DNA of 64,000 bases, taken from Thermodesulfobacteriota bacterium (GTDB taxonomy: Bacteria; Desulfobacterota; BSN033; UBA1163). The DNA is taken from positions 21,669 through 85,668 of the forward strand of contig JBEKWN010000008.1 of assembly GCA_049513055.1 (NCBI GenBank). Direction: 5' to 3'. Below the pieces are notes generated by a model. It saw only the letters and a program-made list of their open reading frames with translations. It did not search any database and was not told the DNA's origin. A program made the translations under genes and the position numbers. Positions 4,851 through 36,170 of this stretch are shown one piece after another (the stretch's first letter is position 1; every line of letters begins with the position of its first letter).

Positions 4851-4863
4851 CTCCTTATAGAAT

Positions 4864-6606: not shown

Positions 6607-6746
6607 TTTTTGCCTCCTTAGAAGAGGTCTTAGTTTAAAGGAATTACAAATTTTTTTATATAAAATGGTATAAAAAGTAAATCAGGTGAATCTTGTATTT
6701 CAAAAAGAGAAATACTGTATTTTTTACTTGATTTCCCCTCACCCAC

Positions 6747-7602: not shown

Positions 7603-7748
7603 GTCTCCACTTTACTAGTGTTTACAAACATGGTAAATAGGGTATACACTGTAGTTTGGGGGTTCTTAAACAGTATTTTTTAAGATGAAACCAGGAAGGA
7701 TTTTTGCCGGTAGGGTGGTTAGGTAGGAATGGAGGTGAGTTGAAAATC

Positions 7749-8408
7749 ATGAGCCAAAAATTTCGAATCGTTATCGCTGAAGACCATACAATCCTCAGGG
7801 AGGGATTACGGTCACTCCTTTCCTCAAATCCAAGTTTCGAAATCGTAGGGGAGGCAGAAGACGGCCGAGAAGCCATCAAGTGTGTTGAGAAATTCAAACC
7901 TGACCTCATCCTAACGGACCTTTCTATGCCAAGGATGAACGGTATGGAAGCCATTAAGGAAATCAAGAGGGAATCCCCAACGATTAAGGTCCTGGTCTTG
8001 ACAGTTCACAGGGCTGAGGAATATATCCTTGCCACCTTCCGGGCTGGAGCCGATGGATATCTCTTAAAGGATTCCACACACGCCGAGTTAGTGATGGCAG
8101 TTAAAAAAGTTTTAAGCGGTAAACATTATATTAGTCCTGAAATTTCAGAAAAGGTAATTGAAGGATACTTAGATGGGAGAAGAACTTTAAAAACCAAATC
8201 CTCATGGGAAACCCTGACCCAACGCGAGAGAGAGATCCTGAAATTGATTGCTGAAGGATACAAGAGCAAAGGAATTGCCGATGACCTTTGTATCAGTGTC
8301 AAGACAGTTGAAAAACACCGGGCCAACCTCATGGAGAAATTGGACCTTCATAGCATCCAAGCCCTAACCGCCTTTGCCATAGAAAGGGGACTAGTTACCC
8401 AAGAATGA
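7749..8408 (+). CDS. NarL/FixJ-family response regulator (REC plus LuxR-type HTH)
   Basis: ATG at 7749 has a GGAGGTGAG RBS. DLSMPRMNG receiver motif and the C-terminal LTQREREILKLIAEGYKSKGIADDLCISVKTVEKHR helix-turn-helix. Confidence 0.85.
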   Translation: MSQKFRIVIAEDHTILREGLRSLLSSNPSFEIVGEAEDGREAIKCVEKFKPDLILTDLSMPRMNGMEAIKEIKRESPTIKVLVLTVHRAEEYILATFRAGADGYLLKDSTHAELVMAVKKVLSGKHYISPEISEKVIEGYLDGRRTLKTKSSWETLTQREREILKLIAEGYKSKGIADDLCISVKTVEKHRANLMEKLDLHSIQALTAFAIERGLVTQE

Positions 8409-8409
8409 A

Positions 8410-15009: not shown

Positions 15010-15168
15010 CTAAGCCTTTTCAAACATATCTTTGGGAGCGCCGCACACGGGGCAGACCCATTCGTCCGGGAGTTTGTCAAAGGGTGTGTTTGGAGGGATA
15101 TTACCGTCAGGATCGCCTTTTTCGGGATCGTAAATATAACCGCAGACATTACATTTCCATTTTTCCAT
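15010..15168 (-). CDS. Rubredoxin of 52 aa ([52 protein letters not shown])
   Basis: Canonical CxxCG...CPxCG rubredoxin. Missed by the ORF track (under 60 aa) and hidden under two spurious overlapping ORFs. Confidence 0.85.
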
Positions 15169-18177: not shown

Positions 18178-18969
18178 TTAGTCTCCCCAGCTCCATACAC
18201 CTGTGTTGTGAAGACTATAATACTGGTCGTTGAGCAGCTTCTCATGAAGAGCCTCTTCATCGGCTAATCGTTTATACATATCCTTTCCACAGGGGTCCTT
18301 GGTCAACTCAGCCATAGATCGATAGTAAGCCCGCGCCTTCTTCTCTTCTCGGACAGCTATTTTCAAAGCATCCATGTCCGTCAACTGCTCTTGACCTTTG
18401 GGCTTCTGTGTCTTCAAGGAAATGGCCTTCTTCTTAAGAGTGGTCCCTTCATAGAGAACCCACTCTCCTTTTTCCTGAAGCGATTTGAGGAGTTCTTTTA
18501 ATTTCTGGTAATGGTTCATCTCGAATTCAGAGAGTTGTTGAAACATATCCCTCCCTTTTGGGTTTTTCGTATTCTTCGCAGCCTTCGAATAGGACTGATA
18601 AGCATTCTTTTCAGCTTCCATGGCTATCTTGATCGCTTCTATATCCTCCCTCTTTGTCCATGGAACCTCCTTCCCACATGTTTTACAGAGAAGTTTCTTC
18701 TCCCTTTGGATCACATCTGCTACACTCTCAACGCCCTCGAGCGTCATGTCTGCCTCAGCACTGCAATGATGACAGGCAAAGGCTTTTTTTGAACTCGTTT
18801 TCATCTCTATCTCCTGCCCGCAGGTCTTACATATCACTTTTTTCTCTCTTTTGATGACATCCTCCACTTTTTCAAATCCTTCGAGAGTGATATCTGCTTC
18901 AGCACCGCAGTGTTGACAGGTGAAAGTCTCTTTTTTACTCATTTCTATCCTCTTCTCCTTTCCTCTCAT
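18178..18969 (-). CDS. Rubrerythrin-like diiron protein with two tandem N-terminal Cys4 rubredoxin-like zinc ribbons
   Basis: Duplicated 40 aa unit C(Q/H)HC(G/S)AEAD(I/M)TLEG...CKTCG. C-terminal half has two ExxH half-sites (EFEMNH; DEEALH). Confidence 0.6.
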   Translation of the reverse strand: MRGKEKRIEMSKKETFTCQHCGAEADITLEGFEKVEDVIKREKKVICKTCGQEIEMKTSSKKAFACHHCSAEADMTLEGVESVADVIQREKKLLCKTCGKEVPWTKREDIEAIKIAMEAEKNAYQSYSKAAKNTKNPKGRDMFQQLSEFEMNHYQKLKELLKSLQEKGEWVLYEGTTLKKKAISLKTQKPKGQEQLTDMDALKIAVREEKKARAYYRSMAELTKDPCGKDMYKRLADEEALHEKLLNDQYYSLHNTGVWSWGD

Positions 18970-19027: not shown

Positions 19028-19213
19028 TTACTCATTAAGGGGCTTATCCTTTTTGCCCACGAGCCTCGGGTCAATATTGCCTGATCCTCCGCAATCAGGA
19101 ATATAGCAAGTCACATCACTGAAGGTGCAGGCCTGCTTACAGGAAGGACATCGCTCAGGCACTGGATCGGCTCCAAATGTGTAACCACAATTTGAACATT
19201 TCCATTGAGTCAT
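19028..19213 (-). CDS. Rubredoxin-like Cys4 zinc-ribbon protein of 61 aa ([13 protein letters not shown]...CPSCKQ...)
   Basis: Strong RBS AGGAGGTGAG. The track ORF 19028..19333 is over-extended. Confidence 0.55.
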
Positions 19214-24345: not shown

Positions 24346-25544
24346 TTTCGAGCCTCCTCTTCGGAAATGGGCCAGGGAATTGAACCGAGATCTCTTAAAC
24401 CATCCAATTGGGGCTGATCAATTCCCTTATGTTGAATCAATACCTTAAAGACTTCACCCATTCCCATCTCTGGTTCAATCAGATGCTTTAATGAAAGCCT
24501 CAATTGAAGTGCGTCCATTTCAGACATCGTTCTTCCCAGAGACTCCATCTCCTGGAGGAGACCCAACGCAATGAGGAATTGATATTGGGGGACGAGACCT
24601 GTGAAGCGGAGGCCTACTTCCTCTCCTTTCTGGATCAGACTGGAGAAGTTGACATGAGAGGTAATGTCCTGTTCTCCCAATCGCTCATAAGGATTATCTG
24701 AAGTCTGATGCTGGGTATAACAGAGAAGCGTTCCTTCTCTTCGATGGGGACCGTAGAGTTCTTTCGCAAGATAGCCATAATCAATGGTCAGGACGAATCC
24801 CTTCTTCAAACACCGAGCCACCTTTTCCATCCAATCCAAGGCCTTAAGATTCACCTCAGCACGCTGGCTCTCTTGGAGGGTGATGTCCATGGATTGGAAA
24901 TAGGAAGCGATCCTTGGATCCGAGAGTTCCCCCCATTGTTCTTTCAAATGGCCATGATCTTGGGTGATATGGATCTCTTTTAGATTCCCGTGATCGAAAA
25001 TGACTTGGTGGACAGGAAAGGCATCCACCAGTTCGTTGGAAAGAAAGCAACCTTCCATCAGATTCTTTTCTTCTTCGAAGGCCTCTGGGTCTATCCAAAA
25101 GACCTTTCCTTCTTTTTCGTGTTCTACAAGCTTTTCTCTCTGCTCCTTTAATAAAAAGGGAGATGTCTCGATAAGGTGATATCGAAGGTGTTGATAGAAG
25201 ACCGAGGAATTCTTCTTCGCCCATTGGAGGACATCCTCACAGAGAAATCCTCTGTCCCCTCCTTGCTCCACGACATCAAAGAATGCCCCTCCCAATTGTT
25301 CTGACATCTGAGAGAGTTGCTTAGCGATCAAGCCTCCGAAAAGGGGATGAACACATGGGCTGGTATAAAAATCCCCATTCCTTCCGATGCTCATCCTTTC
25401 CGACCGATAGTAGCCGTATTCAGGATGGTAGAGACACCATTCCATAAATTGAGAAAAGGGAATGAAACCTCTTTTTTCAATTTGAGAGAAAATAAATCTC
25501 CTCAGCTTTTCTCCCCGGCTTTTTTTCTCTTCTTCCATATACAA
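24333..25544 (-). CDS. MidA/NDUFAF7-family class I SAM-dependent methyltransferase
   Basis: FMEWCLYHPEYGYYR and GDFYTSPCVHPLFG motifs. Confidence 0.7.
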   Translation of the reverse strand: MYMEEEKKSRGEKLRRFIFSQIEKRGFIPFSQFMEWCLYHPEYGYYRSERMSIGRNGDFYTSPCVHPLFGGLIAKQLSQMSEQLGGAFFDVVEQGGDRGFLCEDVLQWAKKNSSVFYQHLRYHLIETSPFLLKEQREKLVEHEKEGKVFWIDPEAFEEEKNLMEGCFLSNELVDAFPVHQVIFDHGNLKEIHITQDHGHLKEQWGELSDPRIASYFQSMDITLQESQRAEVNLKALDWMEKVARCLKKGFVLTIDYGYLAKELYGPHRREGTLLCYTQHQTSDNPYERLGEQDITSHVNFSSLIQKGEEVGLRFTGLVPQYQFLIALGLLQEMESLGRTMSEMDALQLRLSLKHLIEPEMGMGEVFKVLIQHKGIDQPQLDGLRDLGSIPWPISEEEARNWQR

Positions 25545-25765
25545 AGGAGTTCCCTGTTATGGTATCCGGATTGAACCAACTCCCAGCCTTCCTTTCCTTT
25601 CTCACGAAAGAGATCCTGTAGCCATTCAATGCCTCCTTGAAAGACATCGTGGACAAAACAGAGGCCATTCTGATCGCATTCGATGGTACGCTTCTGTTTT
25701 TCGGCCTTTGGTTCTGGCAGTTCGTGGATTGTAATCTGATATTCCCATTGGATCATAAATTTCAC
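25502..25765 (-). CDS. DUF4177 domain small protein
   Basis: WEYQI...GKEGWELV hallmark. Overlaps the annotated MidA start by about 40 nt. Confidence 0.45.
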   Translation of the reverse strand: MKFMIQWEYQITIHELPEPKAEKQKRTIECDQNGLCFVHDVFQGGIEWLQDLFREKGKEGWELVQSGYHNRELLCIWKKRKKAGEKS

Positions 25766-26057: not shown

Positions 26058-26270
26058 CTATGTTTCATAAGTCAAGACCCGGATCAATCCAATGGTAGCT
26101 CCAGTGTTGTCCGTGGTGGTCGTATCGCTGACCGAGACAACCTTTTTCACTTTGTTTTCAGCGAGGAAACGATTTACCTTGTCATCCAAGATCTCTAACT
26201 CTTTTATCGTTTGAAAGATTTTCAACTCTGTCGTAAAGGTTTTGACTTTCCAATTCTTTTTCTCTGCCAT
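26058..26270 (-). CDS. Hypothetical 70 aa protein (KVKTFTTELKIF...), possibly Cse60-like
   Basis: ORF with a GGAAGGAGAAAGG RBS. No confident family. Confidence 0.35.
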   Translation of the reverse strand: MAEKKNWKVKTFTTELKIFQTIKELEILDDKVNRFLAENKVKKVVSVSDTTTTDNTGATIGLIRVLTYET

Positions 26271-26289: not shown

Positions 26290-26370
26290 CGCCCCCCTGC
26301 CTACCGCAGGCAGGCAATAAATGGGGGCGCTACATTTTTAAAGAGTAGCGTTCCGGCAAATGCCGGAACG
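26290..26370 (-). terminator. Two consecutive GC-rich hairpins between the AhpD-like gene and the downstream small gene
   Basis: CGCCCCCCTGCCTACCGCAGGCAGG..ATGGGGGCG and CGTTCCGGCAAATGCCGGAACG. No strong U-tract, so the terminator assignment is tentative. Confidence 0.35.
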
Positions 26371-26381
26371 AAGCTTCTTCT

Positions 26382-26729
26382 TTAATCGCCTCTGCGATGT
26401 TTAATGGGACCCTCCTCAAAGGCCTCATGGACCCAATTCAATGCGGCGATCATTTTTGGAAATCCAATGGTGGTCAGCCCAAGAAGGGCGGCATGTCGAA
26501 TCTCATCCCGAGTGACCCCGATAGCCAGAGCTCTTCGTGTATGAGATTTGATTGCCCCCTCTGATTCCGAACCGATAGCGATCCCCAGCTTGATCAGCCT
26601 TCGCATCTTTTCGTTAAGAGGTCCAGAGGCATGACATTTCTTGGCGAGACGATCATACTCCTTTTCAATCTCTGGGAATTCTTTCTTCAGACGCTTGTAG
26701 GAAAATGGTAGAAAATCCTTCTTTGGCAT
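26382..26729 (-). CDS. Carboxymuconolactone decarboxylase (AhpD-like) family protein
   Basis: AhpD-core motif with the catalytic region IKSHTRRAL. Confidence 0.65.
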   Translation of the reverse strand: MPKKDFLPFSYKRLKKEFPEIEKEYDRLAKKCHASGPLNEKMRRLIKLGIAIGSESEGAIKSHTRRALAIGVTRDEIRHAALLGLTTIGFPKMIAALNWVHEAFEEGPIKHRRGD

Positions 26730-26746: not shown

Positions 26747-27661
26747 TTACCCCAACGTAATGGTATATTTATTAACCAGGTGGTGAGGGAAATAAGACTC
26801 CTTTGCCTTTCTCAAACCCTCTTCCCCTAAATCCTGTTCCCGATTGACATAGGTATATCCTGACCATTGATGTTCTAAAAAGGTCTGATTGATCGTAGGG
26901 TAGAGTCCCTCATAAGCCGGATTTGCCTTTTCAATGTGGATGACAACTGTTTCCGGATTAAGCGGATCTCCCATTGTAAAAGCTTCCACTTTTCCATTGA
27001 TCAGGATGGCTCCTCCCTTCACTCCTAACTCCCCAAAGTGGGTAAAGGCCTCTTTGATGGCGAAGGATTCGTTGAGCAAACCTGGGCTGGCCTCACAATG
27101 TCGGAGATCACACCACTCCGCTTCCAATTGAAGGCATTGTGGAATCCATTCAGGAGTGAGGGGGATATATTGATAGGAATATTTTTCCTGAAATTGTTTG
27201 ATATGATTCCTTTTCCGATGATATTTTCTGCCCTTCAATTCAATCAAGTCCAGGGTAAGGTAGACATAATCGCATTGATTTCGATCCAGTTCGGCCTTCA
27301 TACCCGATGTCTTCCAATCGATCTGAGTCACCCCGGCTTCAGGGACACGGACGATTTTAGGAAGCGTTACTTTTCGACCAAGATATTGAAGCAAACTCTG
27401 GTAACATTCTATCACATCTCCCTCTCCGATAGGAGGAAAGAAAAAAGAACTCTCTCCCTGCTCAGAGAGGAGGCATAGGAAATTTTGAAGACGACTGATT
27501 TTGATCTGATAGGCATGACGCCAGATGAAAAGATTGGTAAAGGTAAATTCTGAAATCTGAGGAGGGAATTGGGTGAAGAGTTGATCACAGAGAGGTTTGT
27601 CTTTGAGGGTTAAATCTTTTAACTGAGGAAATTCTGGCACACCACTCCATAATTCGTCCAT
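26747..27661 (-). CDS. DUF2156-like protein (MprF C-terminal lysyl-PG synthase-like GNAT-fold domain)
   Basis: About 300 aa. Resemblance is by composition only, not verified. Confidence 0.4.
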   Translation of the reverse strand: MDELWSGVPEFPQLKDLTLKDKPLCDQLFTQFPPQISEFTFTNLFIWRHAYQIKISRLQNFLCLLSEQGESSFFFPPIGEGDVIECYQSLLQYLGRKVTLPKIVRVPEAGVTQIDWKTSGMKAELDRNQCDYVYLTLDLIELKGRKYHRKRNHIKQFQEKYSYQYIPLTPEWIPQCLQLEAEWCDLRHCEASPGLLNESFAIKEAFTHFGELGVKGGAILINGKVEAFTMGDPLNPETVVIHIEKANPAYEGLYPTINQTFLEHQWSGYTYVNREQDLGEEGLRKAKESYFPHHLVNKYTITLG

Positions 27662-27690: not shown

Positions 27691-28047
27691 TCACCGGGTC
27701 AAATGGTCGACCATCGCGCAGACTTCCTTGAGATTAAAGGGTTTATGAATAAAACCATAAACGCCTGCCTCGATGGCCTCTTTGAGGAAGGGGTCCCCCC
27801 TTTCTGAAACAATTAGAAGGATTCTTGGTCGGCAGGGGTTCTGAATCTCGAACAGTAGCCCCTTTTCTTTAACCCCGGGACTATCTATATTTAAGATGAG
27901 GATATTGAGATGTTCTTCAGAAAGGTAAGGTTTGATCTGATAACCGCTATCTAATGTGATAACCTGGTGACCTTCTCTCTCTAAACATTCCCTTAAATAA
28001 CCTCGACTGGCTAGTTCGTGGTCGACAATACAAATCTTGCTTGTCAT
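27691..28047 (-). CDS. Single-domain response regulator (REC)
   Basis: CIVDHE...ILNIDSPG...KP receiver topology. Confidence 0.65.
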   Translation of the reverse strand: MTSKICIVDHELASRGYLRECLEREGHQVITLDSGYQIKPYLSEEHLNILILNIDSPGVKEKGLLFEIQNPCRPRILLIVSERGDPFLKEAIEAGVYGFIHKPFNLKEVCAMVDHLTR

Positions 28048-28099: not shown

Positions 28100-28243
28100 T
28101 TACCTTTTCTGTTCGAGTCGATTCTCCATAATCACTTTATCGACGATCTCGCCACAGAAAATGCATCTCCATCCGAAAAACTCTTCACATATACCGTAGA
28201 ATTTTTCGAAGACCATGGCTCCACCACAACGATAACACTTCAT
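28100..28243 (-). CDS. YgiT-type Cys4 zinc-finger small protein of 47 aa (MKCYRCGGAMVFEKFYGICEEFFGWRCIFCGEIVDKVIMENRLEQKR), paralog of 4175..4351
   Basis: First 40 codons nearly identical at the DNA level to the copy at 4175..4351. GGAGG RBS. Confidence 0.5.
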   Translation of the reverse strand: MKCYRCGGAMVFEKFYGICEEFFGWRCIFCGEIVDKVIMENRLEQKR

Positions 28244-28281
28244 AATAATAAACCTCCAATGTTTAAGTTATTTGAATTAAA

Positions 28282-28298
28282 AGCAATTTTTATACCAA
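28282..28298 (-). promoter_or_regulatory. Candidate sigma-54 (-24/-12) promoter TTGGTAT-N5-ATTGCT about 30 nt upstream of the YgiT-2/RR pair
   Basis: The minus strand reads ttTTGGTATAAAAATTGCTTt. GG-N10-GC spacing matches the TGGCAC-N5-TTGC(A/T) consensus. An NtrC-family activator gene lies immediately upstream. Confidence 0.4.
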
Positions 28299-28487
28299 AA
28301 ATTAGATTTTCTCAGGATATCGATAAGTTAGCGATTTTCAAGAAGTTGAGGATTGGTAGGGAATATGGTTTGGATAGAAAATTTGTATAATTTTAAACAA
28401 AAAATTTTTAGATTTTAAGTTTATTGATTAAAAAATATTTATATTTTAATAAGTTACAAATATGTCTATTTTTAGACATTTATTGTA

Positions 28488-29906
28488 TCAATTTTGGTCC
28501 TTTTCCAACCCATACCGTTTCATCTTTCCATAAAGGGTAGAACGATTAATGTTAAGTATTTTCGCTGCCTTATGCTTATTCCAATTCGTTTCTTGTAAAG
28601 TTTTTAAAATTAGGCTCTTTTCATAATCTTGAAGGGTTGTGGATTCCTGTGTGGGCAAAGGCCTTTGGAGAAGGAATTGAGGAAGGTCTTTTGTTAATAT
28701 CTTATTCTGTTTGGCGATGATGATCGCATGGTCAATGGCATTCTCTAATTCACGTACATTTCCAGGCCAAGAGTGTGCGAGGAGAATCTCCATGACTTCA
28801 GGAGAAAAACTGGTAACTTCTTTTCCCCTCTCATGGATGAATTTTTGTAGGAAATGAGAGGCCAGAACTGGGATATCATCTTTTCTCTCACGAAGGGGTG
28901 GGACGAAAATGGGAATGACATTGAGTCGATAATAGAGGTCTTCTCTGAAGGTACCCTTCTTCATCTCCTCGGTCAGATTTTTGTTCGTCGCAGCGATCAC
29001 CCGGACGTCCACCTCCAGGGTCTCCTCTCCACCGACCCTCTCAAAACGGTGATCTTGCAGGACCCGAAGGAGCAGGATCTGGGTGGGAGGAGAAACCTCA
29101 CCAATCTCATCGAGGAATATCGTTCCTCCATTCGCCATTTCAAACCGGCCAATCTTTCGCCGGATGGCCCCAGTGAAAGACCCTTTTTCATGACCGAAGA
29201 GTTCACTTTCCAAAAGGTTCTGAGAATAGGCTGAACAATTAGCGACGACAAAGGGTTTGTTTTTCCGATGGCTGTTAAAATGGATCGCCCTTGCGATCAA
29301 TTCCTTTCCTGTACCGCTTTCACCCTGGATGAGGACGGTTGAATCTGTGTTCGCAATATCCGAGATCAACTCAAAGATTTCTTGCATTCGGGTATTTTTC
29401 CCGAGGATGTTTCCGAAACTGTATCGTTTCTCCAATGCCTGGGTGAGGAGAATATTTTTATCCTTCTCCCTCTTCAGTTCATCATGGAGATCTTTAATCC
29501 GCAGCATCACTCTCACCTTGGCCAGCAATTCTTCATTAATAAATGGCTTGGTGAGGTAGTCATCCGCTCCCAGATTGAGGCTGTTGATCTTATCCTGAAG
29601 GCTTGATCGAACGGTGAGGATGATGACCGGGATGAATTTCAGTTTTTCATCCTCCTTGATCTTGAGGCAGATATCTCTTCCATCTACATCGCCCAGCAAG
29701 ATATCGAGGAGGATCAGATCGACTGGCGTCTCCGATTCTGGAACTTTTTGACTTTCCACCTCTAAGATTCTCAGCGCTTCATCCCCGGAGAGGGCAGGGA
29801 GGACTTGATATCCTTCCAATTCCAGGAGCGCAGTGATCATCCCCACGGTATCCATCTCATCATCGACAACCAATATTTTTTTCGCCTCTCTATCTTTCAT
29901 TCCCAT
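28488..29906 (-). CDS. Sigma-54-dependent transcriptional activator (NtrC family: REC, AAA+, Fis-type HTH)
   Basis: GESGTGKE Walker A, GAFTGA-like ESELFGHEKGSFTGA, C-terminal HTH. The probable start is internal (MGMKDRE). Confidence 0.85.
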   Translation of the reverse strand: MGMKDREAKKILVVDDEMDTVGMITALLELEGYQVLPALSGDEALRILEVESQKVPESETPVDLILLDILLGDVDGRDICLKIKEDEKLKFIPVIILTVRSSLQDKINSLNLGADDYLTKPFINEELLAKVRVMLRIKDLHDELKREKDKNILLTQALEKRYSFGNILGKNTRMQEIFELISDIANTDSTVLIQGESGTGKELIARAIHFNSHRKNKPFVVANCSAYSQNLLESELFGHEKGSFTGAIRRKIGRFEMANGGTIFLDEIGEVSPPTQILLLRVLQDHRFERVGGEETLEVDVRVIAATNKNLTEEMKKGTFREDLYYRLNVIPIFVPPLRERKDDIPVLASHFLQKFIHERGKEVTSFSPEVMEILLAHSWPGNVRELENAIDHAIIIAKQNKILTKDLPQFLLQRPLPTQESTTLQDYEKSLILKTLQETNWNKHKAAKILNINRSTLYGKMKRYGLEKDQN

Positions 29907-30129
29907 TTCCAAGATCCAAATTGTACGATCTCTTGATCGAAGACAATATCGCTGAAAGATCATTGAATGTCAATCGTAATTTGGGATCCACCTCCATTTG
30001 ACATAGAGATGGGTAAATTGTATCATGGCTTATCTGGTGCATAAATCCGATAGGCATATTATCGTATTACTTGGTGAGCGTTCCGTGAACAAGAGGCTCA
30101 CTTTTTTTTAACCCCCATCCAGAGGAGGA

Positions 30130-31737
30130 TTGGAGAATTCAGCAATGTCACGCAAAGGATGTAGCATGATTCGTGATAGGAGGCTTTATCCCCTAGTGCT
30201 CGCCATTATTTTTCTCCATTGCGGATGCGCCGTTGGACCTGATTTCACTCGTCCTCCGGTAAATGTTTCGCAAACCTGGCTGGATGCAGGTGATCAGCGT
30301 GTGAAAACAGAACCGGCAGACTACCGCAACTGGTGGCGGGCATTCAATGATGCGGTCCTGGACCGGCTCATTGACAGGGCTTATCGGGAGAACCTATCTC
30401 TTAGGATCGCGGGTGTCCGGGTACTGGAAGCCAGGGCCCAGCTCGGCATCGCCGTTGGAGGACTTTTCCCTCAGATCCAGCAGGCCTTCGGTTTCCTGCA
30501 GTATAACCGGACGAGCGAACGTGCCCCCAACTTTACCTCTTCTCTTTTGAACTTCCGGCAATCCGAGCTTGGGTTTCAAGCCGCCTGGGAACTCGACTTT
30601 TGGGGGAAGTTCAAGCGGGCGATTGAGTCCGCCGATGCCAGTTTACTCGCAACGGTCGCCGACTATGACAACGCGCTAGTGAGTCTTACGGCGGATGTAG
30701 CGAATTCTTACGTCTTGATAAGGACCCTTGAGAAGCGGCTCGATATTGCCCGTCAAAACGTAGAGACGCAGAAGGAGAACCTGAAGATCGCGGACGCCCG
30801 GTTCCGTTACGGCACAACCTCGCAATTGGATGTGGAGCAAGCAAAAACGGTGCTGAACAATACCCTGGCTTCCATCCCTGCCCTCGAAACCCAACTGCGG
30901 CAGGCTAAGAACGCCCTTAGCGTATTGCTGGGTTTGCCGCCGAGCGGTTTGGCGGACATTCTGGAAGGCTCTTTGGAGATTCCTGTCTCACCACCTGAAG
31001 TAGTAGTGGGCATCCCTGCCGACCTCCTTCGACGGCGGTCGGATATTCGGAGTGCAGAACTTCGGGCAGCGGCTCAATGCGCCCAAATCGGTGTGGCCAA
31101 AGCGGATCTCTATCCCGCTTTTTCACTCACAGGAACTTTTGGATTTCTCTCGAGTGATGTTGGGAAATTTAATTTGAGCGACATGTTTCAGTGGAAGAGC
31201 CGTACTGCACAGGCTGGGCCTTCCGTCCAATGGAATATCCTCAATTATGGGCGGATCACGAACAATGTTCGGGTCCAGGATGCCAGGTTCCAGGAGTTGC
31301 TTATCACTTATCAGAACACTGTTCTCACAGCCCAACAGGAGGTGGAGGATAATCTGGTAGCTTTTCTAAGGGCTCAGGAGCGGGCCGAATTTTTGGCCCG
31401 GAGCGTAGCAGCCGCCAAGCGTTCTCTCGATCTCGCAGTCCTGCAGTATCGAGAAGGCACTAAAGATTTTACGACCGTCCTGATCGCCCAGCAAGCTCTT
31501 TTGAATGAGCAGGACAATCTAGCAACCACCCTGGGCAATGTTTCAAGCAGTCTTGTGGGAGTTTACCGGGCCCTGGGTGGCGGTTGGGAGATTAGAGGAG
31601 GAAAGGACTTGGTGCCCTCTGAGATCAAGGGGGAGATGGCAAAGCGCACCAGTTGGGGGAAATTGCTCGCTCCGGCATCATATAATCCGCCAGTCTCCGA
31701 GGAGCCCAAATCCCTGATTCGGCCTCCCGATTGGTAG
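30130..31737 (+). CDS. RND efflux outer-membrane factor (NodT/OprM/TolC family lipoprotein)
   Basis: Lipoprotein-like N-terminus (HCGC). Two OEP repeats. Confidence 0.85.
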   Translation: MENSAMSRKGCSMIRDRRLYPLVLAIIFLHCGCAVGPDFTRPPVNVSQTWLDAGDQRVKTEPADYRNWWRAFNDAVLDRLIDRAYRENLSLRIAGVRVLEARAQLGIAVGGLFPQIQQAFGFLQYNRTSERAPNFTSSLLNFRQSELGFQAAWELDFWGKFKRAIESADASLLATVADYDNALVSLTADVANSYVLIRTLEKRLDIARQNVETQKENLKIADARFRYGTTSQLDVEQAKTVLNNTLASIPALETQLRQAKNALSVLLGLPPSGLADILEGSLEIPVSPPEVVVGIPADLLRRRSDIRSAELRAAAQCAQIGVAKADLYPAFSLTGTFGFLSSDVGKFNLSDMFQWKSRTAQAGPSVQWNILNYGRITNNVRVQDARFQELLITYQNTVLTAQQEVEDNLVAFLRAQERAEFLARSVAAAKRSLDLAVLQYREGTKDFTTVLIAQQALLNEQDNLATTLGNVSSSLVGVYRALGGGWEIRGGKDLVPSEIKGEMAKRTSWGKLLAPASYNPPVSEEPKSLIRPPDW

Positions 31738-31794
31738 CAGCGTAAAAGTCAGGATGGAAGCCTTTAGAGTGACAGAAGATATGGAGATATAGTA

Positions 31795-32997
31795 ATGGTT
31801 TGCCTAAAAAGAGAGACCTATCGCCCAATTCAAGAAGTTTTAGCTTGCGTAATATGTCTGATGCTCCTTGTTTATGTGGTGGCATGCAAAGAAAAAACCT
31901 CCCCCCCACCGCCTCCGCCCACTGTCACGGTCGCTCAACCCGTCCAACAGACAGTGACGGACTACCTCGAACTAACCGGTAATACACAGGCCATCAAGAC
32001 GGTGCAACTGGTCGCCCGGGTCTCGGGTTACCTGGAAAAGGTCTTCTTCCAAGACGGGCAACTGGTAAAAGAGGGTCAATTGCTCTTTCTCATTCAGCAG
32101 AACACGTACCAGGACAACCTGCGGCAAACCGAGGCAGCAATTTTACAGCAGAAGGCCCAGCTGGAGTATGCCGAAATTCAATTGGCCCGTTATTCTAAGT
32201 TGGTTCAGGAGAAGGCGGCTTCTCAAACCGACGTAGACAACTGGCGGTATCAAAGGGATTCCGCCCAGGCCAACCTGCAGGCGGCGGAAGCGCAACATGA
32301 CCTGGCCAAACTCAATTTGGGCTATACGGAGGTCAGATCTCCTTTTGATGGAAGGATCGATCGGAGGCAGAAAGATCCTGGTAACCTGGTAGGGTCAGGT
32401 GAAAATACGGTCCTGGCAGAGATCAACCAGATCAATCCCATCTATGTCTATTTCAACATCAGCGATGCGGATGTAGCCCGCCTGATAGGAGAGGCTCATT
32501 GGACGCCAGGCCAGGCTCGTGCCATAAAATGGCCGGTCTTCGTGGGCCTCCTTACCGAAAAAGAGTATCCTCACAAAGGCCAGCTCGATTTTGCATCCAT
32601 TAGCCTCACCCCCACCACCGGTACCTTGCTGATGCGCGGAGTCTTCTCAAACCCTGACGGGAAGATCCTGCCGGGACTCTATGCCCGGGTGCATTTGCCT
32701 GTTAAGGAAGGACCTGCTTTTCTGGTGCCTCAGGAAGCTATCGGATATGACCAGCGCGGATCATATGTGTTGGTGGTGAACGAAAATAACGTGGTGCAAC
32801 GTTCCAGCGTCAGAATTGGCACACTGGTGGACCATCTGCGTGTCGTCGAAGAAGGTCTAACGGGAAAGGAATGGGTTGTCATAAGGGGCGTGCAGAAAGC
32901 CATTCCCGGACGACCCGTGACCCCGGAAAAGCAGGATTTACGGGCCTCCGGCGGAAGTTTTGCTCAATCCCCAAATCCGAAGAGGGCGTCACCATGA
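31795..32997 (+). CDS. RND efflux periplasmic adaptor (membrane fusion protein, AcrA/MexA family)
   Basis: Signal anchor, coiled-coil hairpin and beta-barrel motifs typical of MFPs. Confidence 0.85.
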   Translation: MVCLKRETYRPIQEVLACVICLMLLVYVVACKEKTSPPPPPPTVTVAQPVQQTVTDYLELTGNTQAIKTVQLVARVSGYLEKVFFQDGQLVKEGQLLFLIQQNTYQDNLRQTEAAILQQKAQLEYAEIQLARYSKLVQEKAASQTDVDNWRYQRDSAQANLQAAEAQHDLAKLNLGYTEVRSPFDGRIDRRQKDPGNLVGSGENTVLAEINQINPIYVYFNISDADVARLIGEAHWTPGQARAIKWPVFVGLLTEKEYPHKGQLDFASISLTPTTGTLLMRGVFSNPDGKILPGLYARVHLPVKEGPAFLVPQEAIGYDQRGSYVLVVNENNVVQRSSVRIGTLVDHLRVVEEGLTGKEWVVIRGVQKAIPGRPVTPEKQDLRASGGSFAQSPNPKRASP

Positions 32998-35900
32998 TTT
33001 CTAAGTTCTTTATCGAGCGGCCGATCCTCGCTAATGTCGTCGCTTTTGTCACCATCGTTATCGGGATAGTAAGCTACTACCACCTGCCGGTAGAGCAGTA
33101 TCCTCCGATTACGCCGCCGACGATTCAGGTAACCACCAGTTATCCGGGAGCGAGTGCCGCAGTCATTGCAGACATAATAGGAGTACCCATCGAACAGGCG
33201 GTCAACGGTGTTGAGCATTCCATTTACATGTCCTCCAAAAGCAGTAGCGACGGCTCCTATACTCTGACCATTACCTTTGACGTGGGGACCGATCTTAATA
33301 CATCTCTTGCCCTCGTCCAAAATCAGGTCAACACCGCACTGGCACAGCTGCCGCCAGCCGTTGCGCAGCAAGGGGTTAATGTAAGGAAAGTTTCCACTAA
33401 CATCTTGCTAATTGTCAGTTTATACTCCGATGACAACCGGTTTGACGAAGCCTTTCTCTCCAACTACGCCATCATCAATATGCAGAATCCACTGGCCCGG
33501 CTGGAAGGCATTGGCCAGGTAAGGGTTTTCGGGGCTGGCCCTTATAGTATGCGAGTCTGGTTGGACCCAAAGAGACTCCAGGATTTCAACCTTACCACCC
33601 AGGATGTCCTGAGCGCCATCGGAGGCCAGAATATTCAGGTCGCGGCAGGAAAACTGGGTGCTCCTCCTGTACCAAGGGATCAGGTCTTTCAGTTTACCAT
33701 TAACAGCCTGGGCCGGCTGTCCGATGCCGAACAGTTTGAAAACGTCATTGTCAAGAGCGGTCGCGGCGTGACTGCCCAGATTGTACGCTTGCGCGATATT
33801 GGGCGCGTTGATCTGGGCCAACAGTATTACTCAAACTTTGCTAATATGCGCGGACTCAGCTCAGCCCAGATCCCCATCTTCGCCCTTCCCGAGGCCAACG
33901 CCATCGCCGTCGCTAACGAAGTTTACAAGGCCGTGAAAGAAATGTCCAAGGATTTCCCCGAAGGTCTGAAGTACACGATCCGCTTCGACACCACCACGTT
34001 CATCCGTCAGGCAGTATCCAAGGTGTATGAAACGCTTTTCGAAGCGGGCATTCTGGTCCTTATCGTGATCATGGTATTTCTGCAGAGTTTCCGGGGAATG
34101 CTTGTTCCCGCCACTACTGTGCCGGTGACCATTATCGGCGGTTTTGCTGCTATGATCGCGCTCGGATTCACCATCAATCTAATGACCTTATTCGCTTTGA
34201 TTCTGACCATTGGCATCGTGGTCGACGACGCCATCGTCATTGTGGAAAACAGCGCCTATTATATCGAGAAGGGTCTATCTCCAAAAGACGCTGCGATTAA
34301 GGCGATGAGCGAGCTGACCGGCCCGATTATGGGCATTACCATGGCACTGGTCTCGGTTTTCCTGCCTGCGGCCTTTTTACCCGGCATCACAGGACAGATC
34401 TTTCGGCAATTCGCCCTGGTGATTGCTTCGACTGCGGTGATCAGCGCCATTAATGCCCTGACCTTAAAACCGGCCCAGTGTGCCCTGTGGCTCCGGCCCA
34501 GGGGGGAGAAGCAGTTAAATTGGTTTTATCGTGGCTTCAATAAAGTTTATCAGGATATGAAGGATCCCTACATGGGGATGGTTCGCTGGATGGTAAAACG
34601 GGCGGGACTTATGGTCGTGTTTTTTCTCGTCATCATCGCCATTTCTGGCTGGCTATTTGCTCGTTGGCCCACTGGCTTTCTTCCTACCGAGGACCAGGGC
34701 TATGGCATTCTCTTCACCCGTCTGCCGGACGGGGCCGCTCAGCCGAGGGCACGGGAGGTATCAGAGAAAATCGACGATATCCTCAAGAAAACCCCCGGTG
34801 TCGCCAACTGGATTACGATCGGTGGTTATTCCTTCCTGGACGCGGCCAATGTCTCCACGATTTCAAGTACTTTTGTCACTTACAAAGACTGGAGTGAACG
34901 CGGCTCCGCCCTAAGTCAGGATAAGATCATCGCCCGTCTTAACCGCGACCTTTCTGCCATCCAGGAAGCGGTGGCGTTTGTGGTGATTCCACCGCCCATC
35001 AGAGGGTTAGGCCAGACGGGGGGCTTTCAGATGATGGTGCAAGACCGGAAAGACATCGGTCCCCAGGAACTCCAGAGGGCCACAAATGACCTTATCCAGG
35101 CGGGCAACTCCCAGAAGAGTTTACAGAACCTCACCACCACCTTTAACATCAACAGCCCCCAACTCTACCTGGACATTGATAGGACGAAGGCTCAGTCCTT
35201 TCAAGTTCCGCTGAATAACGTGTTTGAGACGCTCCAGGCCTACCTGGGCTCCTCCTTCGTCAATCTCTTCAACAAGTTCAATCAGGTGTACCAGGTCTAC
35301 ATCCAGGCAAACGACAGCTACCGGGTGAAACCAGAGGACATTAAGAACCTATATACCCGAAATGCCAATGGGGAAATGGTACCCCTCGGCAGCGTTGTAG
35401 AGGTCAGACGTTCCCAGGGCTCCGAATTGATCACTCGCTACAACCTTTATCCGGCAGCCGCCATCTTTGGATCCGTTGCTCCAGGATTCACCTCGGGACA
35501 GGCCCTCAAACTGATGGAAGAACTGGGGACGAATGTTCTGCCGCGGGGAGCCGGCTATGAGTGGACCGCTACGAGCTATCAGGAAAAGAAGGTTGGCCAT
35601 CAGGCATACTTCATTTACGCCCTCTCCGTCACCTTGGTCTTCATGGTGCTGGCCGCACTGTATGAGAGCTGGACATCTCCAGCGGCTGTCATTCTGGCAG
35701 TACCCATGGCATTGGTCGGGGTTCTCCTCGGTCTCATCATTCGAGGACTTGACAACAATCTCTACACACAGATAGGCCTGGTGCTGATGATCGCCCTGGC
35801 CAGTAAGAACGCCATCCTCATTGTTGAGTTTGCACGGGACCTGCAACGGGAAGGCATGTCTGTGACCGAGGCGGCCATCGAGGCAACGAGCCGGCGCTTT

Positions 35901-36170
35901 CGCCCCATCGTGATGACTTCCTTTGCCTTCATCCTGGGAGTGGCTCCCCTGCTATTCGCAAGGGGCGCTGGCGCTGCCAGCCAGCAGGCGATCGGCACAG
36001 TCGTCTTTGGGGGCATGATCGCGTCTACATTACTTGCCATCCCATTTGTGCCTGTTTTCTACGTGATCACGCAACGCCTGACCGAACGACGAAGAAAAGG
36101 CAAAACCTCTTCACTGCCAACCGGAGATACTGAGTACCCAAGGCGGGAAGACAAAGGAATGAAGCGGTGA
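32994..36170 (+). CDS. RND efflux permease (AcrB/MexB-like, HAE1 family)
   Basis: Start MISKFFIERPILANVVAF at 32994 (ATGA overlap with the MFP stop). About 1058 aa, 12 TM. Confidence 0.9.
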   Translation: MISKFFIERPILANVVAFVTIVIGIVSYYHLPVEQYPPITPPTIQVTTSYPGASAAVIADIIGVPIEQAVNGVEHSIYMSSKSSSDGSYTLTITFDVGTDLNTSLALVQNQVNTALAQLPPAVAQQGVNVRKVSTNILLIVSLYSDDNRFDEAFLSNYAIINMQNPLARLEGIGQVRVFGAGPYSMRVWLDPKRLQDFNLTTQDVLSAIGGQNIQVAAGKLGAPPVPRDQVFQFTINSLGRLSDAEQFENVIVKSGRGVTAQIVRLRDIGRVDLGQQYYSNFANMRGLSSAQIPIFALPEANAIAVANEVYKAVKEMSKDFPEGLKYTIRFDTTTFIRQAVSKVYETLFEAGILVLIVIMVFLQSFRGMLVPATTVPVTIIGGFAAMIALGFTINLMTLFALILTIGIVVDDAIVIVENSAYYIEKGLSPKDAAIKAMSELTGPIMGITMALVSVFLPAAFLPGITGQIFRQFALVIASTAVISAINALTLKPAQCALWLRPRGEKQLNWFYRGFNKVYQDMKDPYMGMVRWMVKRAGLMVVFFLVIIAISGWLFARWPTGFLPTEDQGYGILFTRLPDGAAQPRAREVSEKIDDILKKTPGVANWITIGGYSFLDAANVSTISSTFVTYKDWSERGSALSQDKIIARLNRDLSAIQEAVAFVVIPPPIRGLGQTGGFQMMVQDRKDIGPQELQRATNDLIQAGNSQKSLQNLTTTFNINSPQLYLDIDRTKAQSFQVPLNNVFETLQAYLGSSFVNLFNKFNQVYQVYIQANDSYRVKPEDIKNLYTRNANGEMVPLGSVVEVRRSQGSELITRYNLYPAAAIFGSVAPGFTSGQALKLMEELGTNVLPRGAGYEWTATSYQEKKVGHQAYFIYALSVTLVFMVLAALYESWTSPAAVILAVPMALVGVLLGLIIRGLDNNLYTQIGLVLMIALASKNAILIVEFARDLQREGMSVTEAAIEATSRRFRPIVMTSFAFILGVAPLLFARGAGAASQQAIGTVVFGGMIASTLLAIPFVPVFYVITQRLTERRRKGKTSSLPTGDTEYPRREDKGMKR

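What the first reader, a model, noticed from the sequence alone, without database searches (positions are those of the whole stretch)
28100..29906. NtrC-type activator, then a candidate sigma-54 promoter, then a YgiT zinc-finger mini-protein and a CheY-like RR. The mini-gene is duplicated in the SOD/bacterioferritin operon at 4175..4351.
Two about 50 aa Cys4 proteins (MKC(C/Y)RCGG(T/A)MVFEKFYGICEEFFGWRCIFCGEI...) are about 88 percent identical, with near-identical DNA over 120 nt. One sits between the bacterioferritin and usp genes. The other is the first gene after a 240 bp AT-rich gap containing a well-spaced -24/-12 element (TTGGTAT-N5-ATTGCT), and a sigma-54 activator gene lies directly upstream. 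The conserved mini-protein could be a redox or metal-sensing zinc ribbon, an anti-sigma or adaptor, or an RNA-binding factor tied to stress regulation. Both copies are below the ORF-track cutoff, so they would be missed by default annotation.
Basis: partly seen in the sequence, partly recalled or inferred. Interest (0 to 1): 0.55.

Follow-up and report, generated by a model that had tools for sequence, protein, structure and literature searches.

The report
Sigma-54-driven small zinc-ribbon gene family
Two real, conserved genes for about 50-residue four-cysteine zinc-ribbon proteins belong to an unnamed multi-copy family of anaerobic Thermodesulfobacteriota, and one heads a well-supported sigma-54 operon beside its NtrC-type activator; it is not a YgiT/MqsA protein and its function is untested.

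Summary
The order is NtrC-type activator (28488..29963), a 244-bp gap at 20.5% GC, a 47-aa Cys4 mini-gene (28100..28243), then a CheY-like receiver (27691..28047). A 58-aa paralog (4175..4351) lies between a ferritin-like gene and usp.

The sigma-54 promoter is supported. TGGTATAAAAATTGCT is the only exact match in the window. It sits 39-73 nt before the ATG in all but two of 47 non-redundant relatives. Two TGT-N10-ACA dyads about 79 bp apart lie upstream of it.

The mini-genes are real coding genes: pN/pS is about 0.16 and synonymous sites vary freely. AlphaFold2 gives a confident zinc ribbon plus C-terminal helix (pLDDT 89).

The YgiT label fails. There is no hit to TIGR03831, Pfam, PDB sequences or MqsA, no HTH domain and no toxin neighbour. 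The family has no name in any library searched. It has 1919 clusters at 50% identity and at least 3-4 copies per genome.

Copies recur beside receiver-domain genes and oxidative-stress genes. My best inference, which is untested, is a small stress-circuit regulator working with receiver proteins. Public annotations already call these genes "hypothetical protein".

The parts
28488..29963 (-). NtrC-type bacterial enhancer-binding protein with REC, AAA+ sigma-54 interaction and HTH_8 domains. The likely true start is at about 29900-29906.
   Evidence: Pfam finds Sigma54_activat at E 1e-71, plus AAA_lid_14, Response_reg and HTH_8. The best NCBIfam hits are AtoC, ZraR and NtrC, all below equivalog cut-offs. 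Walker A GESGTGKE and the GSFTGA loop are read directly from the sequence. The protein is 79-96% identical across 30 species.
28463..28478 (-). Candidate enhancer site UAS1, the dyad TGTCTAAAAATAGACA (TGT-N10-ACA), starting 10 nt after the activator's stop codon.
   Evidence: It is conserved in more than 30 species. Its centre lies about 173 nt upstream of the -24 element.
28384..28399 (-). Candidate enhancer site UAS2, the dyad TGTTTAAAATTATACA (TGT-N10-ACA).
   Evidence: Its centre lies 94 nt upstream of the -24 element. The 77-81 bp spacing to UAS1 is kept in other lineages even where the distance to the promoter differs.
28282..28297 (-). Sigma-54 -24/-12 promoter TGGTATAAAAATTGCT, with GG-N10-GC spacing.
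   Evidence: It is the only exact match in the window, against 0.12 expected. The motif lies 39-73 nt before the ATG in 45 of 47 non-redundant relatives; the other two matches lie at 158 and 553 nt. The one exception to the exact motif, L044, has TGGAAC...TTGCT.
28253..28257 (-). Ribosome-binding site GGAGG of mini-gene A.
   Evidence: Read from the sequence. It is invariant in alignment A3.
28100..28243 (-). Mini-gene A: a 47-aa Cys4 zinc-ribbon protein and the first gene of the sigma-54 operon.
   Evidence: Shown. Family pN/pS is 0.16. AlphaFold2 gives pLDDT 88.9 with strands 9-16, 21-27 and 33-35 and a helix at 36-46.
27691..28047 (-). CheY-like single-domain receiver, 52 nt downstream of mini-gene A.
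   Evidence: Pfam Response_reg at E 3e-13, covering positions 1-110 of 111. D55, S81 and K102 are read from the sequence. It lies directly downstream of the mini-gene in nearly all A-type loci; REC is missing in L029, L030, L037 and L054.
26747..27661 (-). DUF2156 / LPG_synthase_C-domain protein, 29 nt after the receiver gene.
   Evidence: Pfam context in relatives and phmmer classification.
26382..26729 (-). CMD (AhpD-like) protein, the probable last gene of the operon.
   Evidence: Pfam PF02627 in relatives. A terminator-like hairpin follows it.
26349..26370 (-). Terminator-like hairpin with a 9-bp stem (7 G-C pairs), placed after the CMD gene.
   Evidence: The T-run that follows is weak, so this is only a candidate.
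4175..4351 (-). Mini-gene B: a 58-aa paralog with the same zinc-ribbon core and an Arg-rich tail. It lies inside the SOD / ferritin-like / mini / usp string.
   Evidence: Shown. An identical protein (P0038) was read on 22 public contigs, and all six places shown share the same synteny.
4395..5574 (-). Fe/Mn-SOD (4864..5574) and ferritin-like gene (4395..4850), directly upstream of mini-gene B.
   Evidence: Pfam Sod_Fe_C at E 6e-27 and Ferritin at E 6e-27. Synteny is shown.
3689..4114 (-). Universal stress protein gene, 60 nt downstream of mini-gene B.
   Evidence: Pfam Usp at E 8e-30.

Best explanation
Shown here:
- Both mini-ORFs are real protein-coding genes of one unnamed family. The proteins are about 47-60 aa. 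They have a Cys4 zinc ribbon (Cys3/6 and Cys27/30), a short C-terminal helix and the motif M-K-C-x-R-C-G-G-x-M-x-[FY]-E-K-F-Y-G-x-x-E-x-F-x-G-W-R-C-I-x-C-G-E-I-x-D-x-V-I-x-E-N-R.
- The family is multi-copy in Syntrophaceae, Syntrophorhabdus-type and other Thermodesulfobacteriota genomes.
- Copy A is the first gene of an operon mini-REC-DUF2156-CMD. The operon is driven by a conserved sigma-54 promoter. The adjacent NtrC-type response regulator most likely activates it through two TGT-N10-ACA enhancer dyads about 79 bp apart.
- Copy B is probably co-transcribed with SOD, a ferritin-like gene and usp. It lies three genes downstream of a block of two-component genes.

Inferred, not tested:
- The mini-proteins are small metal-stabilised regulatory partners ('connectors') in stress-responsive two-component circuits.
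- When an unknown kinase phosphorylates the activator, the mini-protein and the CheY-like receiver are made together.
- The ribbon then binds a conserved partner, most plausibly a receiver-domain protein, to tune or feed back on the response.
- Its four cysteines could make that binding sensitive to oxidants.
For: Real gene:
- 83 distinct DNA versions give mean pS 0.83 against pN 0.135. Every codon shows synonymous variation, while 11 residues are invariant in the first alignment of 42 sequences.
- The RBS is conserved.
- An exhaustive profile search finds 1919 clusters at 50% identity with E<=1e-3, of which 387 have E<=1e-10.
- The species-representative genome scan found 445 loci, with at least 3-4 per MAG.

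Fold: AlphaFold2 gives pLDDT 88.9. The core superposes on Rpb9-type ribbons at TM 0.6 and rmsd 1.4-2.0 over about 35 residues.

Operon and promoter:
- The synteny activator - gap - mini - REC - LPG_synthase_C - CMD is seen in about 45 species.
- The sigma-54 motif is present at a near-fixed distance in nearly all of them.
- The paired dyads keep their spacing.
- The activator carries the GSFTGA loop and an HTH_8 domain.
- A hairpin follows the CMD gene.

Link to receiver domains:
- REC is the commonest Pfam family among the immediate neighbours of non-A paralogs, at 8 of 73.
- REC genes flank or lie near the mini-gene in A, B/E, D and F contexts, and in a distant 105-aa subfamily that sits divergent to REC and REC-HD-GYP genes.

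Stress theme: neighbours include SOD, ferritin, Usp, AhpC, thioredoxin-DsbH, FUR, cytochrome bd, Flavodoxin_2, CMD, DJ-1 and rubrerythrin.
Against: - There is no experimental or structural evidence for any partner.
- About 15 of about 25 distinct paralog contexts have no REC gene nearby. Two-component genes are abundant in these genomes, so I estimate the enrichment at only about 2-3 fold, and that estimate rests on an assumed background frequency.
- REC is absent from some A-type operons (L030, L054, L055, L061).
- The mini-protein is not more conserved than its activator: 74-98% against 79-96%. Its conservation therefore does not point to a special partner.
- The metal is unknown.
- The Arg-rich tails of the B/E types would suit nucleic-acid binding equally well.
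Confidence: 0.4

Rival explanations
1. The protein is a zinc-ribbon factor that binds the transcription or translation machinery or nucleic acid. It would act on RNA polymerase/sigma-54, the ribosome or RNA rather than on receiver domains.
For: The best structural superpositions are Rpb9/TFIIS-type ribbons of RNA polymerase II and ribosomal zinc-ribbon proteins. The top hit is the small zinc-finger protein ZifS of Thermus (probability 0.92, TM 0.53). B/E-type paralogs carry Arg-rich tails such as ...NGRTRRR and ...MRNRRT. Some paralogs lie next to HU-like genes. A conserved surface on a multi-copy protein fits a universal partner.
Against: All Foldseek E-values are >=0.3, and the zinc ribbon is a generic fold. 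Copy A has a net charge of about +1 with many conserved acidic residues. There are no significant hits to RpoP, S27e or TFIIB models.
Confidence: 0.2
2. The protein is a rubredoxin-like Fe(Cys)4 electron carrier that feeds oxygen-defence enzymes (SOD, rubrerythrin or flavoprotein partners) in a strict anaerobe.
For: Both knuckles are CxxCG. The second knuckle, GWRCxxCGxxxD, resembles the first rubredoxin knuckle (E 0.1-0.2). Oxidative-stress genes recur in the neighbourhood.
Against: The resemblance is below significance. No rubredoxin Pfam or NCBIfam hit reaches a cut-off. The knuckle spacing is 20 residues, against 29 in the genuine rubredoxin in this same window at 15010..15168. Foldseek returns zinc ribbons, not rubredoxins. 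Placement as first gene after a regulator and beside a receiver suits a regulator better than a carrier.
Confidence: 0.15
3. The protein is a YgiT/MqsA-type zinc-finger antitoxin or a remnant of one.
For: Only a superficial resemblance supports this: the protein starts MKCxxCG and has two CxxC pairs.
Against: There is no HMM hit at E<=1. MqsA was not retrieved from PDB by profile or by fold. There is no HTH domain and no MqsR-like neighbour. There are no plasmid, phage or defence-library hits.
Confidence: 0.02
4. The conserved element is really an RNA, such as a leader or sRNA structure, and the ORF is incidental.
For: The mRNA folds better than shuffles (z -2.4). It has a 14-bp hairpin in CDS nt 34-70 that can pair in 85% of cells across 83 sequences.
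Against: The hairpin follows from the peptide palindrome FEKF...EEFF. No pair shows compensatory change, and several pairs are broken freely. Synonymous sites are saturated while amino acids are fixed. There is no Rfam match at E<=1.
Confidence: 0.02

Closest known systems
Generic Cys4 zinc ribbons (Rpb9/TFIIS C-terminal ribbon, archaeal RpoP, ribosomal S27e/L33-type; small zinc-finger protein ZifS TTHA0897, PDB 8yoz)
   Same: It has two CxxC knuckles and a three-stranded sheet. The predicted core superposes on Rpb9 ribbons at TM about 0.6 and rmsd 1.4-2.0 A. ZifS is likewise a free-standing small bacterial zinc-finger protein with a helix.
   Different: There is no significant sequence or profile match to any of them. 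The family has its own motif, EKFYG...GWRCxxCGEIxDxVIxENR. The ZifS match has rmsd 6.3 A and E 0.3. I found no paper on ZifS function.
YgiT/MqsA N-terminal zinc-finger domain (TIGR03831)
   Same: It is a small N-terminal MKCxxC... domain with two CxxC pairs.
   Different: There is no HMM match, no C-terminal Cro/C1-type HTH, no MqsR toxin partner, and a different spacing and motif.
Rubredoxin
   Same: It has CxxCG knuckles, a W-x-C-x-x-C-G-x-x-x-D motif, and neighbours involved in oxygen defence.
   Different: Similarity is below threshold, the inter-knuckle spacing is shorter, and the predicted fold is a ribbon with an extra helix. A true rubredoxin is encoded elsewhere in the window.
Classical NtrC/NifA-type sigma-54 operons (activator gene next to its target, tandem upstream dyads, -24 GG / -12 GC)
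   Same: The activator has REC, AAA+ and HTH_8 domains with a GAFTGA-type loop. The promoter has exact GG-N10-GC spacing. The two dyads have the TGT-N10-ACA form known for NifA sites (my recollection of the literature), and they lie about 100-200 bp upstream.
   Different: The signal and the kinase are unknown. The target operon (zinc ribbon, CheY-like REC, DUF2156, AhpD-like) is not a described regulon. The -24 element reads TGGTAY rather than TGGCAC.
Small 'connector' or anti-adaptor proteins that act on response regulators (for example PmrD and IraP/IraM/IraD acting on RssB)
   Same: This is a working analogy only. Those are small stress-induced proteins, encoded within regulons, that bind receiver-containing proteins.
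   Different: There is no sequence or fold relationship, and binding has not been tested here.

Membership tests
YgiT-type zinc finger (TIGR03831 / MqsA N-domain) | A match to the family HMM above its cut-off. | tested here: not met
   hmmscan against NCBIfam and Pfam at E<=1 lists no TIGR03831 or MqsA model for either copy. None appears among the 25 most-matched families listed (58 families matched in all) for 66 family members.
YgiT-type zinc finger (TIGR03831 / MqsA N-domain) | A C-terminal Cro/C1-type HTH domain, or an MqsR-type toxin partner. | tested here: not met
   The proteins are 47 and 58 aa with no further domain. The neighbours are REC, ferritin and Usp. MqsA was not retrieved from PDB by profile or by fold.
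Zinc ribbon (Cys4) | Two CxxC knuckles that are conserved across the family. | tested here: met
   C3, C6, C27 and C30 are invariant in 83 of 83 DNA versions. They are invariant or >=90% conserved in the wider alignments A2 and A4. Cys19 is not conserved.
Zinc ribbon (Cys4) | A three-stranded antiparallel sheet that carries the knuckles. | tested here: met
   The AlphaFold2 model has pLDDT 88.9 with strands 9-16, 21-27 and 33-35. The best superpositions are Rpb9-type ribbons (TM 0.6), although Foldseek E-values are not significant for so small a domain.
Zinc ribbon (Cys4) | Bound zinc. | not testable with these tools
   This needs metal analysis of purified protein. Iron cannot be excluded.
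Sigma-54-dependent promoter | -24 GG and -12 GC separated by 10 nt within a TGGCAC-N5-TTGCW-like sequence. | tested here: met
   TGGTATAAAAATTGCT at 28282..28297 (-) is the only exact match in the window.
Sigma-54-dependent promoter | Conservation at a fixed position in orthologous regions. | tested here: met
   The exact motif is present in all but one of the non-redundant activator-to-mini loci, and that one (L044) has a one-base variant. It lies 39-73 nt before the ATG in 45 of 47 non-redundant loci, and the flanking sequence has diverged.
Sigma-54-dependent promoter | A cognate enhancer-binding protein and upstream binding sites. | tested here: met
   The adjacent activator has a GSFTGA loop. 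Two conserved TGT-N10-ACA dyads lie upstream, 77-81 bp apart. Binding itself has not been tested.
Sigma-54-dependent promoter | A transcript 5' end about 12 nt after the -12 element, dependent on rpoN. | not testable with these tools
   No expression data are available.
NtrC-family response-regulator activator | REC + AAA+ sigma-54 interaction + Fis-type HTH architecture. | tested here: met
   Pfam finds PF00072, PF00158, PF25601 and PF02954 in that order. No NCBIfam equivalog cut-off is reached, so no specific orthologue (AtoC, ZraR or NtrC) can be named.
CheY-like single-domain receiver | A full-length REC domain with an acceptor Asp and no output domain. | tested here: met
   PF00072 covers positions 1-110 of 111 in a 118-aa protein. 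D55, S81 and K102 are read from the sequence. The acidic pair is D9-H10, not DD.
Rubredoxin | A match to rubredoxin models and knuckle spacing of about 29 residues. | tested here: not met
   There is no rubredoxin family hit. PDB rubredoxins score only E 0.1-2 over 12 residues. The spacing is 20 residues.

The most novel reading that the evidence does not exclude
The family could be a previously unrecognised class of small Cys4 zinc-ribbon 'connector' proteins. They would dock onto receiver domains (CheY-like, NarL-type or NtrC-type) and make two-component signalling in strict anaerobes responsive to oxidants or metal status. Paralogs would be dedicated to different circuits: sigma-54/NtrC for copy A and the SOD-ferritin-Usp circuit for copy B.
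Probability: 0.15. Interest if true: 0.6.

Novelty: new member of a known kind. Interest (0 to 1): 0.35.

Why it matters
The regulatory part is ordinary sigma-54 biology: activator, tandem enhancer dyads and a -24/-12 promoter. It is unusually well supported by comparison across relatives, and it gives a clean test system in a poorly studied, mostly uncultured group (Syntrophaceae, Syntrophorhabdus-type and other Thermodesulfobacteriota).

The mini-protein is more interesting. It is a large family (about 1900 clusters at 50% identity) with several copies per genome. It has no Pfam or NCBIfam model and no name, and it repeatedly sits beside receiver-domain and oxygen-defence genes.

Defining the family would improve annotation of thousands of metagenome genes. 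If it proves to be a redox-sensitive partner of response regulators, it would add a new small-protein layer to two-component signalling in anaerobes.

Tried and rejected
- **YgiT/MqsA membership.** Rejected after HMM, PDB-profile and fold searches.
- **Mobile element, defence or toxin-antitoxin origin.** There are no tblastn hits in plasmids or phages and no PADLOC hits for the mini-proteins or their operon partners.
- **RNA element.** There is no Rfam hit. The stable hairpin in the CDS is a by-product of the peptide palindrome and shows no covariation.
- **Fusion partners.** Longer 'members' of two 90% clusters (P0236, P0256) are unrelated sequences, that is, clustering artefacts. N-terminal extensions in many database entries look like mis-called starts, because the conserved Met aligns in all of them.
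- **Sigma-54 promoters before other paralogs.** They were found only for A-type genes and a few others (L053, L055/L061, L062, L073/L074). None was found for copy B or its orthologues.
- **The dyad elsewhere in the window.** A search for further regulon members found nothing beyond chance: 7 hits at <=3 mismatches against 4.6 expected, and only the two intergenic sites are good.
- **Literature.** I found no paper on this family or on ZifS/TTHA0897.
- **Exceptional conservation as a clue to a universal partner.** The mini-protein is no more conserved than the neighbouring activator.
- **A canonical IHF site (WATCAANNNNTTR) in the gap.** No match was found. Only a conserved AATCAAT core is visible.
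Full report
**1. What is in the window**

Everything in the finding lies on the minus strand. Reading 5' to 3' on that strand:

- An ORF at 28488..29963 with REC, sigma-54-interaction AAA+, AAA-lid and Fis-type HTH domains (Pfam E 1e-71 for PF00158). Homologues are 468-470 aa, so the real start is probably M20 or M22, at about 29906/29900. Walker A (GESGTGKE) and a GSFTGA version of the GAFTGA loop can be read in the sequence. No NCBIfam equivalog cut-off is reached, so it is an NtrC-family activator without a specific name.
- A 244-bp gap at 20.5% GC.
- A 47-codon ORF at 28100..28243, with GGAGG 9 nt before its ATG.
- After 52 nt, a 118-aa receiver-only protein at 27691..28047 (PF00072, E 3e-13).
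- After 29 nt, a DUF2156/LPG_synthase_C gene at 26747..27661.
- After 17 nt, a CMD/AhpD-like gene at 26382..26729, followed by a 9-bp G+C-rich hairpin.

The second mini-ORF (4175..4351, 58 aa) lies 43 nt after a ferritin-like gene, which is itself preceded by an Fe/Mn-SOD gene. It lies 60 nt before a usp gene. tblastn finds only these two copies in the 64 kb.

They are 80% identical over 46 residues and 94% over the first 33. Thirteen of the first 126 nt differ.

**2. The mini-ORFs are real genes of a large unnamed family**

- A word-indexed search found 60 relatives at 72-96% identity.
- An exhaustive profile search of 1.84 billion representatives found 1919 clusters at E<=1e-3, of which 387 are at E<=1e-10.
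- A scan of one genome per GTDB species found 445 loci. The best 80 all come from Syntrophaceae, Syntrophorhabdus or otherwise unclassified Thermodesulfobacteriota ('delta proteobacterium') MAGs, with at least 3-4 copies in many genomes.

Across 83 distinct DNA versions the first 42 codons align without gaps. Mean pairwise pS is 0.83 against pN 0.135, and every conserved codon shows free synonymous variation. That is selection on a protein, not on DNA or RNA.

Cys3, Cys6, Cys27 and Cys30 are invariant in those 83 versions, and the fifth cysteine of the window copies is not conserved. In the first alignment of 42 sequences the invariant residues also include M10, K14, F15, G24-W25-R26, G31-E32 and D35; N41 is invariant and R42 nearly so in the 83 DNA versions.

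AlphaFold2 with a 66-sequence alignment gives pLDDT 88.9. The model has three strands and a C-terminal helix at residues 36-46.

All database names are 'hypothetical protein', plus a few automatic JGI labels such as RpoP, S27E or TiaS that reflect only the zinc knuckle.

**3. It is not a YgiT/MqsA protein or any other named family**

- hmmscan of both copies at E<=1 against Pfam and NCBIfam gives only sub-threshold knuckle matches (Desulfoferrodoxin_N, NrdR ribbon, RpoP) and no YgiT/MqsA model.
- Scanning 66 diverse members shows the same scatter of generic zinc-ribbon families, none better than E 7.7e-5 (one member, Spin-doc zinc finger) and the commonest no better than 1e-3.
- A family profile against all PDB sequences at E<=10 returns Tob1, rubredoxins and Cmr2, but not MqsA.
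- Foldseek against PDB has no hit below E 0.3. The top hit is the small zinc-finger protein ZifS (TTHA0897) of Thermus (probability 0.92, TM 0.53, rmsd 6.3 A). Next come ribosomal and Rpb9-type ribbons, which superpose well on the 35-residue core (TM 0.6, rmsd 1.4-2.0 A).
- I could find no paper on ZifS.
- There is no HTH domain and no toxin neighbour.
- There are no plasmid or phage hits and no defence-system model hits.

**4. The sigma-54 promoter and its enhancer**

TGGTATAAAAATTGCT (28282..28297) has the exact GG-N10-GC spacing. It is the only exact match to TGGYAY-N5-TTGCW in the window, against 0.12 expected. Eleven of 100 shuffles reach one match, so alone it is weak evidence. With one mismatch allowed the window shows no excess.

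The decisive evidence is comparative:

- In an alignment of eight diverged intergenic regions, the motif, the RBS and the ATG are almost the only invariant blocks.
- Among non-redundant loci with the activator-to-mini arrangement, all but one carry the exact motif. The motif lies 39-73 nt before the ATG in 45 of 47 non-redundant loci.
- The exception, L044, has TGGAAC...TTGCT.
- By my estimate, the chance of an exact match in a 300-nt stretch is of order 3e-4.

Directly after the activator's stop codon lies a perfect dyad, TGTCTAAAAATAGACA (28463..28478). A second dyad, TGTTTAAAATTATACA (28384..28399), lies 79 bp downstream. Both have the TGT-N10-ACA form that I recall as the NifA-type upstream activator sequence.

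Their centres lie 173 and 94 nt upstream of the -24 element in most relatives. Where the gap is longer, the pair moves together: 264/185, 150/72 and 166/89. Paired sites at a conserved spacing, next to an HTH_8 activator gene, are what an enhancer for hexamer assembly looks like. Binding itself is inferred.

No canonical IHF site was found. No Rfam family matches the region.

**5. Context of the family**

The module activator - promoter - mini - REC - DUF2156 - CMD, often followed by two small conserved ORFs, a Methyltransf_28 gene and a Flavodoxin_2 gene, recurs in about 45 species. Identities to the window are 74-98% for the mini-protein, 79-96% for the activator, 59-92% for REC and 65-90% for DUF2156. 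REC is missing in a few cases (L030, L054, L055, L061), but the mini-gene always comes first.

Copy B's arrangement, SOD - ferritin - mini - usp, downstream of a block PAS-kinase / NarL-type regulator / REC / REC / HATPase, is identical in all six places shown, and the identical protein was read on 22 contigs. The arrangement is partly kept in more distant genomes.

Other paralogs sit in varied places. Among 73 immediate neighbours of non-A paralogs the commonest Pfam family is Response_reg (8), followed by MFS (4), HU (3) and isochorismatase (3).

A REC map of all loci shows receiver genes adjacent or within a few genes in the A, B/E, D and F classes and several singletons, but not in about 15 other contexts. 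A distant 105-aa subfamily (GWHC...LHRLSQDADLQIPEEEE) lies divergent to a REC gene and a REC-HD-GYP gene in both long contigs examined.

Redox and metal genes are also frequent neighbours. They include AhpC, thioredoxin-DsbH, FUR, cytochrome bd, PNPOx and Flavodoxin_2. In the window itself there are also rubrerythrin-like and rubredoxin genes.

**6. How it most likely works**

Shown: a sigma-54 operon headed by the mini-gene next to its activator, and a second copy embedded in an oxygen-defence gene string.

Inferred: an unidentified kinase phosphorylates the NtrC-type regulator. The regulator assembles on the two dyads and opens the sigma-54 promoter. The zinc ribbon and the CheY-like receiver are then produced together with a DUF2156 protein and an AhpD-like protein.

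The family recurs beside receiver genes in several independent arrangements. It is a tiny protein in which almost every surface residue is conserved. I therefore favour a protein-binding 'connector' role in two-component stress circuits, possibly switched by oxidation of the Cys4 site (confidence about 0.4).

The main rivals are:

- A polymerase-, ribosome- or nucleic-acid-binding ribbon, favoured by the Arg-rich tails of B/E types and by the fold neighbours (0.2).
- A rubredoxin-like iron protein, favoured by the CxxCG knuckles and the oxygen-defence context, but disfavoured by spacing, fold and the presence of a true rubredoxin (0.15).

An antitoxin reading and an RNA-element reading are effectively excluded.

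**7. Novelty and verdict**

The regulatory architecture is textbook. The mini-protein is a new, unnamed member of the zinc-ribbon small-protein world: large, lineage-restricted, multi-copy and uncharacterised.

The finding is real and modestly interesting (0.35). Its YgiT label should be dropped. The promoter prediction is strong enough to use as annotation, and function needs experiments.

Noticed in passing
window 4175..4351 versus 28100..28243: Copy B looks chimeric, with an A-type core (codons 1-33) and a B/E-type Arg-rich tail. Only 7 of the first 99 nt differ from copy A, which is closer than any A orthologue from another species (at least 8). In another genome the A and B copies differ at 30 of 99 nt (L041 versus L072). 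This suggests gene conversion from A into B in this lineage.
   Followed up: partly
window 28384..28399 and 28463..28478: Two TGT-N10-ACA dyads lie 79 bp apart. The first starts 10 nt after the activator's stop codon. The pair keeps its spacing in lineages where the distance to the promoter changes, so it is probably the enhancer of the NtrC-type activator.
   Followed up: yes
window 15010..15168 (-): A canonical 52-aa rubredoxin ([22 protein letters not shown]...[16 protein letters not shown]) is encoded here. A rubrerythrin-like gene (18178..18969) and another WKCSNCGY knuckle at about 19142..19204 lie nearby.
   Followed up: partly
window 25502..25765 and 26058..26270 (-): Two small ORFs (87 and 70 aa) have no Pfam or PADLOC hit. 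They are kept in the same order (70 aa, then 84 aa, then Methyltransf_28) in loci from distant relatives (L001, L014). They are conserved unknown genes.
   Followed up: no
window 2923..3408 (-): This 161-aa PDZ-only ORF is highly similar to the C-terminal third of a 483-aa HtrA-type protease. In another genome (L087) that protease sits directly before a mini-gene paralog and a TauE gene. In the window only the PDZ part remains, before TauE (2493..2855). It is either a truncation or a free-standing PDZ protein, and it is conserved in L005-L010.
   Followed up: no
window 5809..10959: A block of two-component genes lies upstream of copy B: an HATPase_c protein with no HisKA hit (5809..6606), two overlapping REC-only paralogs (6747..7208 and 7171..7602), a NarL-type regulator (7704..8408, +) and a PAS/GAF kinase (8410..10959). 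The same RR-REC-REC block lies 3-5 genes upstream of B/E-type mini-genes in other genomes (L064, L087, L091, L105).
   Followed up: partly
window 28174..28210 (CDS nt 34-70 of mini-gene A): A 14-bp hairpin in the mRNA arises because the peptide FEKF...EEFF is encoded by self-complementary codons. It can pair in 85% of cells across 83 sequences but shows no compensatory changes, so it is likely a by-product.
   Followed up: yes
L106 5001..5288; L107 5001..5327: A distant subfamily of about 105 aa has the same ribbon (GWHC variant) plus an acidic helical extension. It is itself highly conserved (401 database hits at E<=1e-3; the best 120 are 77-100% identical). It lies divergent to a REC gene and a REC-HD-GYP gene.
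   Followed up: partly
L076 4734..5180: Two mini-gene paralogs lie in tandem, downstream of a sigma-54 activator gene and a 122-aa gene, in Syntrophaceae UBA2208.
   Followed up: no
window 30130..36170 (+): An RND efflux set (outer-membrane factor, MFP and RND pump) is transcribed divergently from the activator gene. This neighbour varies among relatives, so it is probably not part of the module.
   Followed up: no
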